From positions 1-57,778 of the IMG/VR virus record IMGVR_UViG_3300020125_000357: 57,778 nucleotides of DNA, one strand, 5' to 3'. Made by a program: the position numbers and the translations under genes. Positions 5,776 through 26,658 of the stretch are shown in pieces. The notes beneath the pieces are model-generated. The model saw only the letters and a program-made list of their open reading frames with translations, searched no databases and was not told the DNA's origin. Position 1 is the first letter of the stretch. Each line of letters begins with the position of its first letter. Source of the DNA: a virus (Duplodnaviria; Caudoviricetes).

Positions 5776-5944
5776 ACTTGCAATAGAGAAATTGATTTAT
5801 TCATCTCCAAAGAACTAAATTACTTTTTATCCCTCTCTGTTGCAGGTACTAGAATCAACCATTAAATATGACGGTAAATTTAATGGTTGATTTAATTATC
5901 CACCATACTAGCCCCAAACACTTTACCGTCGCTGGGGCTTTTTT
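5776..5944 (+). ncRNA. Putative ~170-nt structured sRNA ending in a terminator
   Basis: Three hairpins (5776-5847, 5853-5892, 5910-5939) plus U-run; G-U pairs favour the + strand; 9-nt loop-loop complementarity. Confidence 0.55.
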
Positions 5945-5950
5945 ATTTAT

Positions 5951-6044
5951 GTACGTCTAGCTTTGATGGTTCATTCCGATATAGGTAGCGAAAGCAGTCG
6001 AATAGATATACTATATAGCTCCGTTCGATTCGGAGAGGCGTGCA
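5951..6044 (+). ncRNA. tRNA-like RNA 1 (acceptor + T arm, atypical interior)
   Basis: GTACGTCT/AGGCGTGC acceptor, CTCCG-TTCGATT-CGGAG T arm, TA-GCTT...AAGC D stem with enlarged loop, no canonical anticodon arm. Confidence 0.65.
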
Positions 6045-6102
6045 TTTATATGAACTCTCTAAGCCTCTTCATGAATGCAAATATTTGAGAGTTTATTTAT
6101 GT

Positions 6103-6178
6103 ATTCCCGTCGTATAGTGGTGAATACATTCGGTTTTCATCCGGATAACAGCAGTTCAATTCTGCTCGGGAATACCCA
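6103..6178 (+). tRNA. tRNA-Glu(UUC)
   Basis: ATTCCCG/CGGGAAT acceptor, TTCGG-TTTTCAT-CCGGA anticodon arm, AGCAG-TTCAATT-CTGCT T arm. Confidence 0.85.
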
Positions 6179-6180
6179 TG

Positions 6181-6358
6181 CAAGATGTAGCTCAGAAAAT
6201 CATCACCTGAGACGTGAAGAAGGGTCGACTTACTTACTGATAATTATGGAGCTTTATTGTATAAACAGATTATTGGTTAGTGAAGTGAGAGCAATTGGTG
6301 ATGTAGGGAGTCATGACCCGAAACTGATAGGTCGCTGGTTCGAGTCCAGCCATCTTGC
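6181..6358 (+). ncRNA. tRNA-like RNA 2 with 95-nt D loop and 25-nt anticodon loop
   Basis: CAAGATG/CATCTTG acceptor, TA-GCTC-AG...GAGC D stem, ATTGG/CTGAT stem, AGGTC variable loop, GCTGG-TTCGAGT-CCAGC T arm. Confidence 0.75.
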
Positions 6359-6374
6359 ACTTTTTGGAAATATA

Positions 6375-6554
6375 ATGAGATCATACACTAAAGTTAGAAT
6401 TGTAGCTACAGGTGAAACTGGATATTACCGAGACGAAATACAGAATGGTTTGGTATATCCTTTTAAGTATAAAATCATCGTCAATAATGAAATTAGATGG
6501 CTGGAGCAAAAAGAGTTTAGAGCTTTAAGCGATATCAGGAAAAAGGGTAAATGA
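6375..6554 (+). CDS. Small SH3-like hypothetical protein (true start ATG 6375)
   Basis: YTKVRIVATGETG...YKIIVNNEIRWLEQKEF; the upstream part of the listed ORF overlaps tRNAs. Confidence 0.55.
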   Translation: MRSYTKVRIVATGETGYYRDEIQNGLVYPFKYKIIVNNEIRWLEQKEFRALSDIRKKGK

Positions 6555-6739
6555 GTAAAATATCCCAGATTATCATGTTGATAATGTTGAGTATGGCTTT
6601 TTTATTGGCTATGGCTGTGACCATTGGATGTATATATTGGGGGGTTACACATGAACCACCTGCAACTTTGGGTGCAATTCCGGCAATAATAGGAATGGTA
6701 GCTGTCATAGGAGTTATGTTAGATTTAAATAGTAAATAG
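6551..6739 (+). CDS. Two-TM membrane protein
   Basis: Two hydrophobic helices; start overlaps preceding stop. Confidence 0.6.
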   Translation: MSKISQIIMLIMLSMAFLLAMAVTIGCIYWGVTHEPPATLGAIPAIIGMVAVIGVMLDLNSK

Positions 6740-11718: not shown

Positions 11719-11790
11719 ATTCCTGTCATATAGTGGTTAATATATTCCCCTTTCTAGGGAAGAACAGCAGTTCGAATCTGCTCAGGAATA
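11719..11790 (+). tRNA. tRNA-Glu(UUC)-like paralogue with atypical U37, no encoded CCA
   Basis: ATTCCTG/CAGGAAT acceptor, TTCCC-CTTTCTA-GGGAA anticodon arm, AGCAG-TTCGAAT-CTGCT T arm. Confidence 0.75.
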
Positions 11791-18153: not shown

Positions 18154-18230
18154 TGAGGTGTAGCTCAGTTGGTTAGAGCGACGGACTGTTAATCCGCAGG
18201 TCGCTGGTTCAAATCCAGCCTCCTCAGCCA
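18154..18230 (+). tRNA. tRNA-Asn(GUU)
   Basis: CGGA-CTGTTAA-TCCG anticodon arm, GCTGG-TTCAAAT-CCAGC T arm, GCCA end. Confidence 0.9.
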
Positions 18231-23623: not shown

Positions 23624-23899
23624 ATGCTACCTCCAATGTATACATTACAAGCAGCCCTTATAGGACTCTCAGATCCAACTCCTACAATAAATTTGGCAAA
23701 TGGAGTAATTGCGCAATTAACAAGATATGAATATTATCTTCCATATATTAATGATGTTAACCCCCAATTAAATGTACCAATTTTATATTTTAATATTATA
23801 ACGCAGGCTATAACAATTGGTGATACTTCAGATATTGGAATTACTAATTCTGATATATTTAGTGCTACTGATTGGATTGTTTTAAATGCAGTTTACTAA
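23624..23899 (+). CDS. Hypothetical protein coupled to TerL
   Basis: TAATG overlap with the TerL start. Confidence 0.6.
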   Translation: MLPPMYTLQAALIGLSDPTPTINLANGVIAQLTRYEYYLPYINDVNPQLNVPILYFNIITQAITIGDTSDIGITNSDIFSATDWIVLNAVY

Positions 23900-26658
23900 T
23901 GATTAATTATAATAGATTAGCAGAATTAATTAAAAAAAAAGATAGTGGATCTCCATTAACTCATTTTGAATTACAAGAATTTGCTGATTTAACTCGTGAA
24001 ATAAAAACAAAGGATTATTTATCTTTTTGTAAATCTATGCGGCCTACGTATAAGTGGGCATGGTTTCATGAATATATAATATCTTGTATCGATTCTGCCA
24101 TTGAAAATAAAAGAGGTAGATTCATTGGTAAAATGCCTCAACAGCATGGAAAAGCTCTAAAAAATGGTTCATTGATAAAAGTTATAAATGGCTGGAAAAA
24201 AATTGAAGAATTAGTAATTGGTGATATTGTCGATAATGCGTGCGGTGGTTATACAGAAGTTATTGGCATTTATCCTCAAGGAATTAAACAATTATATAAA
24301 ATTACATTTGAAGATAATAGATCTATTGAATGTTGTAGTGAACATTTATGGCAAATACATAGTAGTAAATGGAGGAGTGAAAAGAAACGGATATTAAATA
24401 CAGAAGAAATTATTAGATTGAGTAAATTAAATAATTATTCAAAAAATTTATATATCCCAAGATATATTCCAGTAAAAGATAAAGATATATCACTTCTCAT
24501 TGAGCCTTATTTATTCGGCGTATTATTGGGTGATGGCAGTTTTAGTAAAAGTATAAAAATAACGTCTGCTGATAAATATATTATTGATAAATGTAATCAA
24601 AGTCTATCTAGTTTAAATATGGATTTAACTCATTATGAAAAATATGATTATGGTGTTAAAAATATCAAACAAAATTTAATTGATTCAAAAGGTCGTCCAA
24701 GAACAAGAATGCATAAAAATATAATTAAAGATAACATAGTTTTAATGGGTTTATTACATAAACAATCCCATGAAAAATTTATTCCAGAAATATATTTTGA
24801 AGGTTCCTATGATCAAAGATTAAAATTAATTCAAGGATTAATGGATACAGATGGAACTATAGGTAAACAAAGTACTATTAATTTTACAACTACAAGTCCA
24901 CAGTTAGCATTAGACATGCAAAAATTAATTAGATCTATTGGGGGATTAGCCCAAATAAAAATCAAACAATCTTTTTTTAAATATAAGGGTGAAAAGAAAA
25001 AGGGAAGACTAGCATACACAGTTAATATAAGAATGGCAGATCAAACATTATTATTTAGTTTACCTAGAAAATTAGAAAGATGTAAAGCTATTCATAGAAG
25101 AAGTAAAGCAAATAAATACATACGTATTAAAAACATAGAACTTAGTGGATTTGATAATGCTACTTGTATTTCTGTAGCTGATCCTAATCATTTATTTGTT
25201 ACGGATGATTATATAGTTACCCATAATACTGAATTGTTTGGCCGTATGCCAGTACCTTATATTTTTGGTAAATACCCTGAATGGAAAATAATATATATTA
25301 CATTTAGTGATGATAGAGCCAAAGAAGTATCTGGAGATATTTTAAATATTATTGCTAGTGATGAATATAATAAATTATTTCCTCAAGTAATATTAAAAGA
25401 TAGAATTGTAGACGATGTTAGAACAGCACAAAAAAGACGTAATAAATTATCAATTAATAATTTTACTAATGTAAATAGTAAACGTGGTGAATTTAAAGCG
25501 GTAGGTATAGAAGGATCAACATCTGGCTATGATGCAAATTTGATTATATTAGATGATTTTTTTAGTGGGCCAGTAGAATATAATAGCCCAACTATTAGAG
25601 AAAAACGTTGGAAAATATTTACAGAAAATATTCTAAAACGTCAACAAAAAGATACCATAATTTTAGTAATGTCTACTCATTGGCATAAAGATGACATTAT
25701 TGGTAGACTTGAGGAATATATAAAAATAAAAGATCCTTTAGCACCAGATTGGCAAGTAATTGAATTTAATGCCCAAAAAGATGAAAGAGATTACCCATAT
25801 GATCCTAGGCAAATAGGTGAATATTTATGGCCAGAAGAAAGATTAGATGTATATCTTGAAGGTAAAATTATTGATCCCATAGGATGGCAAACTACTTATC
25901 AAAATATGCCAATGAGTTCAAGTGGAACTATTTTTGATGCAACATCATTTAGATATTATGATGAGTCTCCTAATGTTGAAAATTTACGCATAATTATTAG
26001 CGTAGATCCTAATTATAAAAAAGCAGCTAAAAAAGGTGATGATTGTGCAATTGTAGTATTAGGATTTGATTCAGATAAAGTTTATTTATTAGATTATTCA
26101 GCAATCAATAAAGTTGATATTATGGATAATATTAATAGGATTAATATTTTTAGACAAAAATATCCTAATTATTATGCCATATTAGTTGAGGATGCAGCAC
26201 AAGGTGAAGATATTGTTACCTTAATGCAATATGAGGGCGTTAGTAAGCTTAATAAGTTTATTCCCCAAGGCTTTAATAAAGGTGAAAATGGTAAATTATT
26301 TCGTGCACAAAATATGATTCCTTATTGCAGAGCAGGACAATTTCATTTACCTTCACCACGAATATATCCATCTATACAACTATATATCAATCAATTTTTG
26401 GAATTTACAGGATTTGATAATGGAAAAGACGATTGTGTGGATGCAACATCACAGGCATTTATTGAATATAAATATTTATTAGAACCTATTAAATTATCAA
26501 GAATTGATTATTCGATTAAAAATGAATTTAATTTAGGTAGAGGATTAACAAAACTTAATAATCCTTTTATAGGAAACAATTATGAGCAAAAAAACACGTT
26601 CCCAACCCAAAGTATCCGTAACACAAAAACCTTTGGTTCAATTAGGCGCATTAGATAA
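23899..26658 (+). CDS. terL: Terminase large subunit (intein-containing)
   Basis: Walker A MPQQHGK|T split by intein, Walker B LIILDD, nuclease SVDP...DD...DDCVDA. Confidence 0.93.
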   Translation: MINYNRLAELIKKKDSGSPLTHFELQEFADLTREIKTKDYLSFCKSMRPTYKWAWFHEYIISCIDSAIENKRGRFIGKMPQQHGKALKNGSLIKVINGWKKIEELVIGDIVDNACGGYTEVIGIYPQGIKQLYKITFEDNRSIECCSEHLWQIHSSKWRSEKKRILNTEEIIRLSKLNNYSKNLYIPRYIPVKDKDISLLIEPYLFGVLLGDGSFSKSIKITSADKYIIDKCNQSLSSLNMDLTHYEKYDYGVKNIKQNLIDSKGRPRTRMHKNIIKDNIVLMGLLHKQSHEKFIPEIYFEGSYDQRLKLIQGLMDTDGTIGKQSTINFTTTSPQLALDMQKLIRSIGGLAQIKIKQSFFKYKGEKKKGRLAYTVNIRMADQTLLFSLPRKLERCKAIHRRSKANKYIRIKNIELSGFDNATCISVADPNHLFVTDDYIVTHNTELFGRMPVPYIFGKYPEWKIIYITFSDDRAKEVSGDILNIIASDEYNKLFPQVILKDRIVDDVRTAQKRRNKLSINNFTNVNSKRGEFKAVGIEGSTSGYDANLIILDDFFSGPVEYNSPTIREKRWKIFTENILKRQQKDTIILVMSTHWHKDDIIGRLEEYIKIKDPLAPDWQVIEFNAQKDERDYPYDPRQIGEYLWPEERLDVYLEGKIIDPIGWQTTYQNMPMSSSGTIFDATSFRYYDESPNVENLRIIISVDPNYKKAAKKGDDCAIVVLGFDSDKVYLLDYSAINKVDIMDNINRINIFRQKYPNYYAILVEDAAQGEDIVTLMQYEGVSKLNKFIPQGFNKGENGKLFRAQNMIPYCRAGQFHLPSPRIYPSIQLYINQFLEFTGFDNGKDDCVDATSQAFIEYKYLLEPIKLSRIDYSIKNEFNLGRGLTKLNNPFIGNNYEQKNTFPTQSIRNTKTFGSIRRIR
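24154..25227 (+). mobile_element. Class 3 intein with LAGLIDADG homing endonuclease (358 aa)
   Basis: Begins Ala after GK; EHLW, TCISV, VTHN|T; LFGVLLGDGS and IQGLMDTDGT motifs. Confidence 0.9.

What the first reader, a model, noticed from the sequence alone, without database searches (positions are those of the whole stretch)
6181..6358. tRNA frame carrying two large, mutually complementary inserts (natural tRNA scaffold RNA)
Seen: most tRNA framework elements are intact (7-bp acceptor extendable to 9, U8-A9, GCUC/GAGC D stem, A14-G15, 5-bp anticodon stem, AGGUC variable loop, perfect GGUUCGA T arm). The D loop is 95 nt (6194-6288) and contains its own long hairpin (~6228-6286). The anticodon loop is 25 nt (6299-6323). 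The two inserts can pair with each other: CATCACC 6201-6207 with GGTGATG 6297-6303, and GGGTCG 6222-6227 with TGACCC 6314-6319. Established: tmRNA, YrlA/Y RNAs and group I intron-containing tRNAs do not have this topology. Inference: a non-decoding RNA that uses tRNA processing and stability to present a folded cargo or switch, for example a decoy for tRNA-targeting defences. Paired, structured inserts look selected rather than decayed.
Basis: partly seen in the sequence, partly recalled or inferred. Interest (0 to 1): 0.82.

Follow-up and report, generated by a model that had tools for sequence, protein, structure and literature searches.

The report
Phage tRNA-like gene, oversized middle
Next to a normal tRNA gene, a soil phage carries a tRNA-derived gene whose top half is intact and conserved while its decoding half is replaced by about 137 unrelated bases, much like the long-unexplained small stable RNAs of phage T4.

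Summary
The tRNA frame is real. It has a 9-bp acceptor helix (6179-6187/6351-6359), U8-A9, GCTCA and a canonical T arm (6334-6350). It lies 5 nt after tRNA-Glu in a complete 57.8-kb phage genome. The same 17-nt 5' core and 28-nt 3' core occur in the only close sister phage found (G001). There they frame an 84-nt and a 107-nt tRNA-like gene, both of which pass the Rfam tRNA threshold. The window's 181-nt copy does not pass it.

The 137-nt middle (6196-6332) is unique. It folds no better than shuffles (z -0.24).

So the frame looks selected, not the cargo. My best reading is a non-decoding top-half tRNA mimic, made with tRNA-Glu and matured by tRNA enzymes. Phage T4 species 1 RNA (rnaC) shows the same kind of frame in the same position, and its function is still unknown.

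A dead tRNA relic remains a serious rival. I found no covariation, no RNA data and no known host. Interest is moderate: a new variant of a known kind.

The parts
6103..6174 (+). Canonical tRNA-Glu(UUC), 5 nt upstream of the element. It is the likely partner in a dimeric precursor.
   Evidence: ARAGORN and Rfam RF00005 at 59.8 bits. It is 91% identical to the G001 copy.
6179..6187 (+). 5' strand of the acceptor helix, TGCAAGATG. The 7 canonical pairs run 6181-6187. G6180 and T6179 add an 8th and a 9th pair.
   Evidence: Perfect 9-nt inverted repeat with 6351-6359. Pair probability 0.98-1.0. Identical in G001 copies A and B.
6188..6195 (+). U8-A9 and GCTCAG, the 5' strand of the D stem plus A14-G15.
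   Evidence: Direct reading. ATGCAAGATGTAGCTCA is identical in W, A and B.
6191..6211 (+). Local D-like hairpin, CTCAG / CTGAG with an 11-nt loop.
   Evidence: Pair probability 0.39-0.71. Copies A and B also have local D arms.
6196..6332 (+). Lineage-specific middle of 137 nt that replaces the D loop, anticodon arm and most of the variable loop.
   Evidence: No match in W, G001 or G002 beyond 10-13-mers or in the phage collection. z -0.24. GC 38.7% against a genome mean of 30.3%, which puts it in the top 8% of windows.
6222..6319 (+). Long imperfect hairpin. The arms 6222-6237 and 6303-6319 give 15 bp in three blocks.
   Evidence: Present in the MFE. Pair probability 0.57-0.75. The stretch 6212-6329 has z -1.02, with 32 of 200 shuffles as good.
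6201..6303 (+). Alternative 7-bp helix, CATCACC 6201-6207 with GGTGATG 6297-6303.
   Evidence: Pair probability 0.21. At chance level, since 27.8% of shuffles have one.
6334..6350 (+). T arm, GCTGG TTCGAGT CCAGC.
   Evidence: Pair probability 0.95-0.96. Identical in copy A, with one loop change in copy B. 91% identical over 23 nt to the phage's own tRNA-Asn at 18198-18220.
6351..6359 (+). 3' strand of the acceptor helix, CATCTTGCA. No CCA is encoded; CTT follows.
6360..6377 (+). CTTTTTGGAAATATAATG: a U run, a GGA ribosome-binding site and the start codon of the next ORF. CTTTTTGGAG/A follows the frame in all three alleles, although the downstream genes differ.
6375..6554 (+). Downstream orphan ORF of 59 aa. 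Its frame stays open upstream to 6075, through both RNA genes.
   Evidence: No family found. No homologue of the 6246-6554 product.

Best explanation
The element (6179-6360, + strand) is a tRNA-derived gene that has kept only the top half of a tRNA. That half consists of an 8-9-bp acceptor helix, U8-A9, the start of the D stem and a canonical T arm. About 137 nt of unrelated, unremarkable sequence sit where the D loop, anticodon arm and variable loop should be.

It belongs to a small, fast-changing islet of tRNA-like genes in two sister soil myoviruses. Within that islet the frame is the conserved unit and the middle is free to vary (84, 107 and 181 nt in total).

Inferred mechanism:
- It is transcribed together with tRNA-Glu, which ends 5 nt upstream.
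- It is cut by RNase P at the 5' end and by RNase Z or exonucleases at the 3' end.
- It is given CCA and accumulates as a stable RNA of about 180 nt that cannot decode.
- Its activity lies in what reads the acceptor, T arm and tail, that is tRNA-maturation enzymes or tRNA-tail-targeting host factors.

This places it with T4 species 1 RNA (rnaC) in kind.

Shown: the frame, its conservation, the lack of a canonical anticodon arm and the lack of structure or conservation in the middle. Inferred: transcription, processing, stability and any role.
For: 1. The frame is present and significant.
2. G001 is the only close sister phage found; its portal is 81% identical. It carries the identical 17-nt 5' core. 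Its 28-nt 3' core matches 28/28 in copy A and 26/28 in copy B (over the 28-nt core). The main aligned genome block is 78.6% identical and tRNA-Glu is 91% identical.
3. Copies A and B score 32.4 and 43.5 bits on RF00005, whose cut-off is 29. For B, Infernal skips the whole anticodon arm. The family is therefore tRNA-derived and its anticodon arm is non-canonical in all 3 of 3 members.
4. The frame occurs in all three alleles seen (W, G001 v1 and G001 v2). In v2, tRNA-Glu is absent between the shared upstream repeat and copy B.
5. All stems of the top half are fully paired in W, A and B. They are also fully paired in two further non-canonical neighbours of G001, copies C and D.
6. T4 rnaC, annotated as a small stable RNA, lies directly after tRNA-Arg. 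By the same script it contains a 7-bp acceptor, U8 and a T-arm frame spanning 91 nt. It has no RF00005 hit with E-value up to 1.
7. The element's sequence shows no differing letters in contigs of three further soil runs from three studies.
8. [quoted passage not shown]
Against: - No transcript evidence of any kind is available.
- With only three homologous frames that have identical stems, there is no covariation. Conservation could reflect recent recombination rather than selection.
- The islet is mosaic. Alleles v1 and v2 differ wholesale next to an identical 124-bp repeat.
- The local D loop of the window's copy lacks the GG that normally contacts the T loop, so an L-shape is not assured.
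- No CCA is encoded.
- The whole element's fold is only z -1.79.
- No promoter was identified between the upstream terminator-like hairpin and tRNA-Glu.
- The more distant relatives G002, G003 and G004 have no such element and no tRNA match above Rfam's cut-off.
Confidence: 0.45

Rival explanations
1. It is a dead tRNA gene. A former tRNA, possibly an Asn-like paralogue, was wrecked by insertions and recombination in a hyperplastic region. The frame survives only because the damage is recent or because short patches were exchanged between phages. It has no function.
For: - The middle is indistinguishable from random sequence in stability and pairing and is unique.
- The locus is mosaic, with wholesale allele replacement.
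- G001 has several other degenerate tRNA-like neighbours, C and D, and a duplicated 12-bp tail, CCATCTTGCACC, that looks like a recombination scar.
- The T arm and variable loop resemble the phage's own tRNA-Asn.
- There are faint remnants of a GTT anticodon arm, but the local alignments have p values of only 0.03-0.45.
- More distant relatives do without it.
Against: - There are 45 identical core positions between W and copy A, while the main aligned genome block is 78.6% identical.
- No stem mismatch occurs in any of 5 top halves.
- The frame is retained in all 3 alleles, whereas a canonical tRNA is not.
- The sequence is the same in 3 further soil runs.
Confidence: 0.3
2. It is a cis-acting punctuation and cassette-junction element. 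The tRNA-like fold serves as an RNase P/Z cutting signal that frees the downstream mRNA just before its ribosome-binding site. Its conserved ends also act as microhomology for swapping gene cassettes.
For: - In all three alleles the frame is followed within 2-3 nt by CTTTTTGGAG/A and a start codon, while the three downstream genes differ.
- The CCATCTTGCACC tail is duplicated after copy C.
- RNase P is known to cut mRNAs and phage regulatory RNAs (PMC4919922, passage read).
- Microhomology-driven rearrangement at the T6 tRNA locus is documented (PMC13096335, passages read).
Against: - It does not explain why the middle is retained or enlarged.
- Only three junctions were seen.
- Nothing was tested experimentally.
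Confidence: 0.12
3. This is the reader's version: a tRNA scaffold that presents a selected, folded cargo or switch made of two mutually complementary inserts.
For: - The complementary segments exist.
- The ensemble has two competing conformers, at about 0.7 and about 0.21.
- The GC content of the middle is 38.7% against 30.3% for the genome.
Against: - The pairings are at chance level.
- The middle has z -0.24.
- The cargo is not conserved in A or B.
- No antisense target longer than chance 11-12-mers exists in the phage genome.
Confidence: 0.05
4. It is an intron-bearing functional tRNA. The middle would be removed to give a decoding tRNA, for example Phe(GAA) or Leu(GAG).
For: - ARAGORN -i at a lowered threshold proposes tRNA-Phe(GAA) with a 110-nt intron.
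- 583 of 1587 single-deletion products pass ARAGORN at default settings, and 412 of them are called Leu(GAG).
Against: - ARAGORN with introns allowed and a similarly lowered threshold (-ps85) gives 50, 55 and 37 calls in the three genomes.
- Shuffled-interior controls give 0-794 passing products, and 2 of 30 exceed the real count.
- The proposed products lack a D stem.
- No group I intron or ribozyme family appears with E-value up to 10.
- From general knowledge, 110-137 nt is below the size of known self-splicing tRNA introns, and bacteria lack a tRNA splicing endonuclease.
Confidence: 0.04
5. It is protein-coding, as part of the 159-codon open frame 6075-6554.
For: The frame is open through tRNA-Glu and the element.
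Against: - No family match.
- No homologue among 5.8 billion proteins in the near-length search.
- From reading the sequence, the frame is closed in G001 copy A.
- The region is plainly tRNA-derived.
Confidence: 0.02

Closest known systems
Phage T4 species 1 RNA (rnaC), and with it species 2 RNA (rnaD)
   Same: - A small RNA gene placed head-to-tail directly after a canonical tRNA in a phage tRNA islet.
- Longer than a tRNA, at 139 nt.
- Contains a fully paired 7-bp acceptor, U8 and a canonical T arm that span an oversized middle of 91 nt, found by the same script.
- Not recognised by RF00005.
- Function still unknown (PMC9697503, passage read).
   Different: - No sequence similarity beyond 7-9-mers.
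- T4 rnaC has a 46-nt 5' extension outside the frame, and its fold is far more stable than shuffles (z -4.57). The element here has z -1.79.
- rnaC is a demonstrated stable RNA. This element has no expression data.
Canonical tRNA (Rfam RF00005), including tRNA-His and bacterial tRNA-Sec with their 13-bp acceptor/T stack
   Same: - Acceptor, U8-A9, GCTC, T arm and AGGTC variable loop.
- An 8th acceptor pair gives an 8+5 stack. That this is typical of tRNA-His (G-1:C73) and bacterial tRNA-Sec is recalled, not tested.
- Relatives A and B pass the RF00005 cut-off.
   Different: - No RF00005 hit for the window's copy with E-value up to 10.
- No canonical anticodon arm.
- 137 nt where about 35 are expected.
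- No GG in the local D loop.
- The phage's tRNA-Glu genes also pair -1 with 73, so the 8th pair is not specific evidence for His identity.
tmRNA tRNA-like domain
   Same: An acceptor and T arm enclose a long non-tRNA middle. It is processed by RNase P (PMC4919922).
   Different: - The Rfam tmRNA score is 7.9 bits against a cut-off of 47, and it comes from the T arm alone.
- ARAGORN's tmRNA mode finds nothing on this strand.
- There is no G3:U70; positions 3 and 70 are A-U.
- No tag reading frame or pseudoknots were identified.
C4 antisense RNA of phages P1/P7
   Same: A phage regulatory RNA that uses a tRNA-like fold to be matured by RNase P. I saw only the citation of Hartmann et al. 1995.
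   Different: - No Rfam hit.
- No antisense target above chance in the phage genome.

Membership tests
tRNA (RF00005) | Score at or above the 29-bit gathering threshold | tested here: not met
   There is no tRNA hit at 6180-6360, even with E-value up to 10. Relatives A and B do meet the threshold, at 32.4 and 43.5 bits.
tRNA (RF00005) | Seven-bp acceptor, U8 and a 5-bp T stem with a TTCRANN loop | tested here: met
tRNA (RF00005) | Five-bp anticodon stem with a 7-nt loop at the canonical distance from the D and T arms | tested here: not met
- An ASL-like hairpin at 6202-6218 (anticodon GAG) has probability 0.02 and leaves no room for a D arm.
Intron-containing tRNA | Removal of one segment gives a canonical tRNA more often than expected by chance | tested here: not met
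   583 of 1587 products pass ARAGORN. Shuffled-interior controls give 0-794, and 2 of 30 exceed the real count.
Intron-containing tRNA | Group I intron core or another self-cleaving or self-splicing ribozyme | tested here: not met
   No such Rfam family with E-value up to 10 in 5900-6600.
tmRNA (RF00023) | Gathering score of 47 bits, a tag ORF and G3:U70 | tested here: not met
   7.9 bits. No tmRNA was called on this strand. Positions 3 and 70 are A-U.
T4 species 1 RNA-like (phage tRNA-islet small stable RNA) | Lies directly downstream of a canonical tRNA on the same strand | tested here: met
   There is a 5-nt spacer after tRNA-Glu. T4 shows the same layout: tRNA-Arg, rnaD, rnaC.
T4 species 1 RNA-like (phage tRNA-islet small stable RNA) | An acceptor plus T-arm frame around an oversized, non-canonical middle | tested here: met
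   The same script finds both.
T4 species 1 RNA-like (phage tRNA-islet small stable RNA) | Sequence homology to rnaC or rnaD | tested here: not met
   Only 7-9-mers match.
T4 species 1 RNA-like (phage tRNA-islet small stable RNA) | Accumulates as a discrete stable RNA during infection | not testable with these tools
   No RNA holder is listed among the public runs, and the host is unknown.

The most novel reading that the evidence does not exclude
These phages encode a class of 'top-half-only' tRNA mimics. Selection keeps the acceptor stem, T arm and tail but lets the bottom half drift or be swapped. The RNA is matured and CCA-tailed like a tRNA yet is invisible to the ribosome and to anticodon-reading enzymes. 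It would work as a sponge or decoy for host factors that read tRNA ends, such as tail- or acceptor-cleaving defence nucleases or tail-modifying toxins. The same logic could explain T4 RNAs C and D, whose function has been unknown for about fifty years.
Probability: 0.18. Interest if true: 0.8.

Novelty: new variant of a known kind. Interest (0 to 1): 0.45.

Why it matters
Standard tRNA finders and Rfam miss this gene, so elements of this kind are probably under-counted in phage genomes.

If the conserved top half is functional, the element gives a second, independent example of the T4 rnaC type of RNA. It would also come with natural variants (84, 107 and 181 nt) that show which parts are dispensable. 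That makes the old question of what such RNAs do more approachable.

The question is timely, because host defences that cleave or modify tRNA tails, acceptor stems and loops are now known. If the element is only a relic, it still documents how fast tRNA islets are rebuilt between closely related soil phages.

Tried and rejected
Searches that found nothing:
- blastn of 5950-6560 against 50,697 phage records gave no match.
- IMG/VR pattern scans. A frame pattern with gaps gave 0 hits. The 3' 22-mer hit only G001. The 5' 15-mer gave 58 stretches; 56 lie outside G001 and none of those has the 3' acceptor strand within 320 nt, so they are chance coding matches.
- Genome contigs gave 0 hits for the 3' 22-mer and 0 for a gapped whole-frame pattern. 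No host tRNA with this frame was found, so there is no support for an attP-type origin. No integrase was found among the large ORFs either.
- The metagenome scan gave two contigs, both identical to G001 allele v1.
- Neighbouring proteins (632-1390 and 6375-6554) have no IMG/VR relatives.
- A portal-profile search added two distant relatives, G003 and G004. They have no tRNA match with E-value up to 1 and no top-half frame.

Structural and comparative tests that did not hold up:
- ARAGORN with introns was rejected as evidence, because it gives 37-55 calls per genome at that setting.
- The single-deletion scan did not exceed controls.
- A homology-guided model (D stem 6190-93/6249-52, anticodon remnant 6266-68/6324-26) gives -41.6 and -36.8 kcal/mol with probability 0.00, so I rejected it.
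- Local alignments of the middles gave p 0.068 for W against A, 0.45 for W against B and 0.031 for A against B. This is suggestive of a shared Asn-like remnant at most.
- Antisense targets in the phage genome are only 11-12-mers, no longer than same-strand chance matches.

Other blanks:
- The promoter and terminator scan found nothing above shuffles.
- Public runs: no RNA holder is listed. All laid runs were contigs, so transcript starts, ends and levels could not be read. Parts without contig cover in X3-X5 carry no meaning.
- I did not ask for any paper supplements. The supplementary figures of PMC9697503 (northern blot of RNAC) may bear on the T4 comparison.
- I found no paper describing this element or an rnaC function in searches.

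Full report
**Context**

The window is a complete IMG/VR phage genome of 57,778 bp with a 127-bp direct terminal repeat. GC content is 30.3%. It has myovirus-type late genes: terminase, portal, sheath, tape measure and baseplate J. No integrase was found among the large ORFs. ARAGORN and Rfam find four tRNAs: Glu(UUC) twice, Met and Asn. The finding lies 5 nt downstream of the first tRNA-Glu (6103-6174), on the same strand.

**The observation**

- A 7-bp acceptor, 6181-6187/6351-6357. It extends to 9 bp with G6180:C6358 and T6179:A6359.
- U8-A9, GCTC-AG, GAGC at 6289-6292, ATTGG/CTGAT, AGGTC and a canonical T arm at 6334-6350.
- The two complementary pairs of segments.

The frame is more than chance. 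A simple scan for a T arm, a 7-bp acceptor and U8 returns three of the four tRNAs plus this element in the window. It returns 2 hits in 20 shuffled genomes.

The proposed interior structure is not more than chance:
- The interior alone folds no better than dinucleotide shuffles (z -0.24, 78 of 200 as good).
- A perfect inverted repeat of 7 nt or more appears in 27.8% of shuffles.
Their constrained fold is -44.5 against -49.3 kcal/mol for the MFE.
- A local D-like hairpin (6191-6195/6207-6211) and a 15-bp arm (6222-6237/6303-6319) hold about 0.7. The 7-bp helix holds about 0.21 as a competing conformer.
- The whole element has z -1.79.

**Known families**

No Rfam family reaches its gathering score. 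With E-value up to 10, only a 7.9-bit tmRNA hit on the T arm and noise appear. ARAGORN at default settings does not call it.

With introns allowed and a lowered threshold, ARAGORN proposes tRNA-Phe(GAA) with a 110-nt intron. A comparable lowered-threshold run with introns allowed gives 37-55 calls per genome.

I tested the intron idea more generally. Of 1587 single-deletion products, 583 pass ARAGORN at default settings. Versions with a shuffled interior give 0-794 passing products, and 2 of 30 exceed the real count. The frame alone therefore carries the score, and a spliced tRNA is not supported.

**Relatives**

A portal search found two relatives in IMG/VR: G001 (81% identity) and G002 (69%). 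A profile search added two distant ones at 37%.

Only G001 has the element. G001 is syntenic with the window; its main aligned genome block is 78.6% identical and tRNA-Glu is 91% identical.

The G001 contig breaks exactly at this locus. Its two ends share an identical 124-bp stretch and then diverge. An independent 48.7-kb metagenome contig runs from the upstream gene into one of the two versions. I read these as two alleles of the islet:
- Allele v1 carries tRNA-Glu, then three non-canonical tRNA-like genes: D (69 nt), A (107 nt) and C (110 nt).
- Allele v2 carries copy B (84 nt) and no tRNA-Glu between the shared stretch and B.

Copies A and B share with the window the core ATGCAAGATGTAGCTCA (17 of 17). 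They also share CGCTGGTTCGAGTCCAGCCATCTTGCAC: 28 of 28 for A, and two changes for B, both at unpaired positions.

B has a normal D arm, and Infernal aligns it to tRNA while skipping the whole anticodon arm (43.5 bits). A scores 32.4 bits. A folds into a five-armed cloverleaf (z -2.61) and B has z -3.50.

The middles of W, A and B are not significantly alignable (p 0.068, 0.45 and 0.031). The window's middle has no match in the three genomes, the phage collection or IMG/VR.

The T arm and variable loop resemble the phage's own tRNA-Asn. An Asn-like ancestor is therefore a reasonable but unproven origin.

**What this means**

Across three alleles, the only conserved islands in a mosaic region are the two halves of the tRNA top half. 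What lies between them ranges from 41 to 138 nt between the shared cores and is unrelated. All acceptor and T stems are fully paired in W, A and B, and also in C and D. In contigs from three further soil runs (three studies, leaving out the possible source), the window's version shows no differing letters where covered.

This pattern is the opposite of a scaffold that displays a selected cargo. It points to selection on the frame, with a tolerated filler in the middle. It could also be produced by recent patchy recombination in a decaying locus. With identical stems in only three sequences there is no covariation to decide between these.

**Mechanism (inferred)**

- Co-transcription with tRNA-Glu as a dimeric precursor. 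Such precursors are classical for T4 tRNAs (PMC11143913, passage read).
- 5' cutting by RNase P.
- 3' trimming and CCA addition. CCA is not encoded here. In copy A the acceptor is followed by ACCA, which favours the register with an extra pair at the base of the acceptor and A73.
- Accumulation as a non-decoding RNA.

The 8+5 stack recalls tRNA-His and bacterial tRNA-Sec (recalled, not tested). The phage's tRNA-Glu genes also pair -1 with 73, so I do not claim His identity.

The frame is always followed by CTTTTTGGAG/A and a start codon, while the downstream genes differ. A role in mRNA punctuation or as a cassette junction is therefore a live rival.

**Closest known**

In the T4 record, rnaD and rnaC ('small, stable RNA; species 2/species 1') follow tRNA-Arg head-to-tail. 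My frame scan finds in rnaC a 7-bp acceptor, U8 and a canonical T arm spanning 91 nt. RF00005 does not hit it. Its function is still described as unknown (PMC9697503, passage read).

There is no sequence similarity to the element here. T4 rnaC is also much more stably folded (z -4.57).

Defences that read only the tRNA tail, acceptor and T arm (Cas12a3; PMC12851939, passages read), or loops (Septu and retron-Eco7; PMC13096335, passages read), make a decoy role conceivable. Nothing here tests it.

**Verdict**

The frame is real and very likely maintained. The 'two mutually complementary structured inserts' are not supported. The element is best filed as a new variant of the phage tRNA-islet small-RNA kind, with the dead-tRNA relic as the main rival.

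Confidence that it is tRNA-derived and non-decoding is high, at about 0.85. Confidence that it is an expressed, functional top-half mimic is about 0.45.

Noticed in passing
window 23872-26658 (about aa 68-460, i.e. 24077-25251): The large terminase ORF (928 aa) carries a LAGLIDADG homing-endonuclease domain (PF14528, E 7e-12). About 1.2 kb of it is missing from the otherwise collinear G001 genome. This is probably an intein in TerL.
   Followed up: partly
G001 (L011 = G001:54158-56415 and L006 = G001:1-1578): The sister phage's contig breaks at the tRNA islet. Both ends share an identical 124-bp stretch and then carry different versions: v1 has tRNA-Glu plus D, A and C, and v2 has copy B alone. 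Two independent metagenome contigs match v1. This looks like coexisting alleles of a hypervariable islet.
   Followed up: partly
L011 minus strand, about 1635-1525 (copy C) and 1820-1752 (copy D): There are two further non-canonical tRNA-like genes with intact acceptor and T arms but one extra nucleotide between them. Copy C ends in ACCA and contains TTCTAGA, a possible CUA anticodon loop. A 12-bp CCATCTTGCACC tail is duplicated after copy C.
   Followed up: no
window 6043-6100 and L011 minus strand about 1990-1905: Just upstream of tRNA-Glu, a hairpin with a conserved stem (AAACTCTC / GAGAGTTT) encloses a loop of about 29 nt in the window and about 55 nt in G001. This is another conserved stem around a variable middle.
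   Followed up: no
window 5912-5950: A terminator-like hairpin (GCCCCA ... TGGGGC, then a T run) has a long loop that contains CTTTACCGTC. That loop motif recurs in both G001 alleles. The terminator scan missed the hairpin because of the loop length.
   Followed up: no
window 6075-6554: A 159-codon open frame runs through tRNA-Glu, the element and the 59-aa downstream ORF. It has no family match and no homologue, and the frame is closed in G001 copy A. It is probably a chance extension of the short ORF.
   Followed up: yes
window 6103-6174 and 11719-11790: There are two tRNA-Glu(UUC) genes 5.6 kb apart. In both, position -1 pairs with position 73 (U:A).
   Followed up: no
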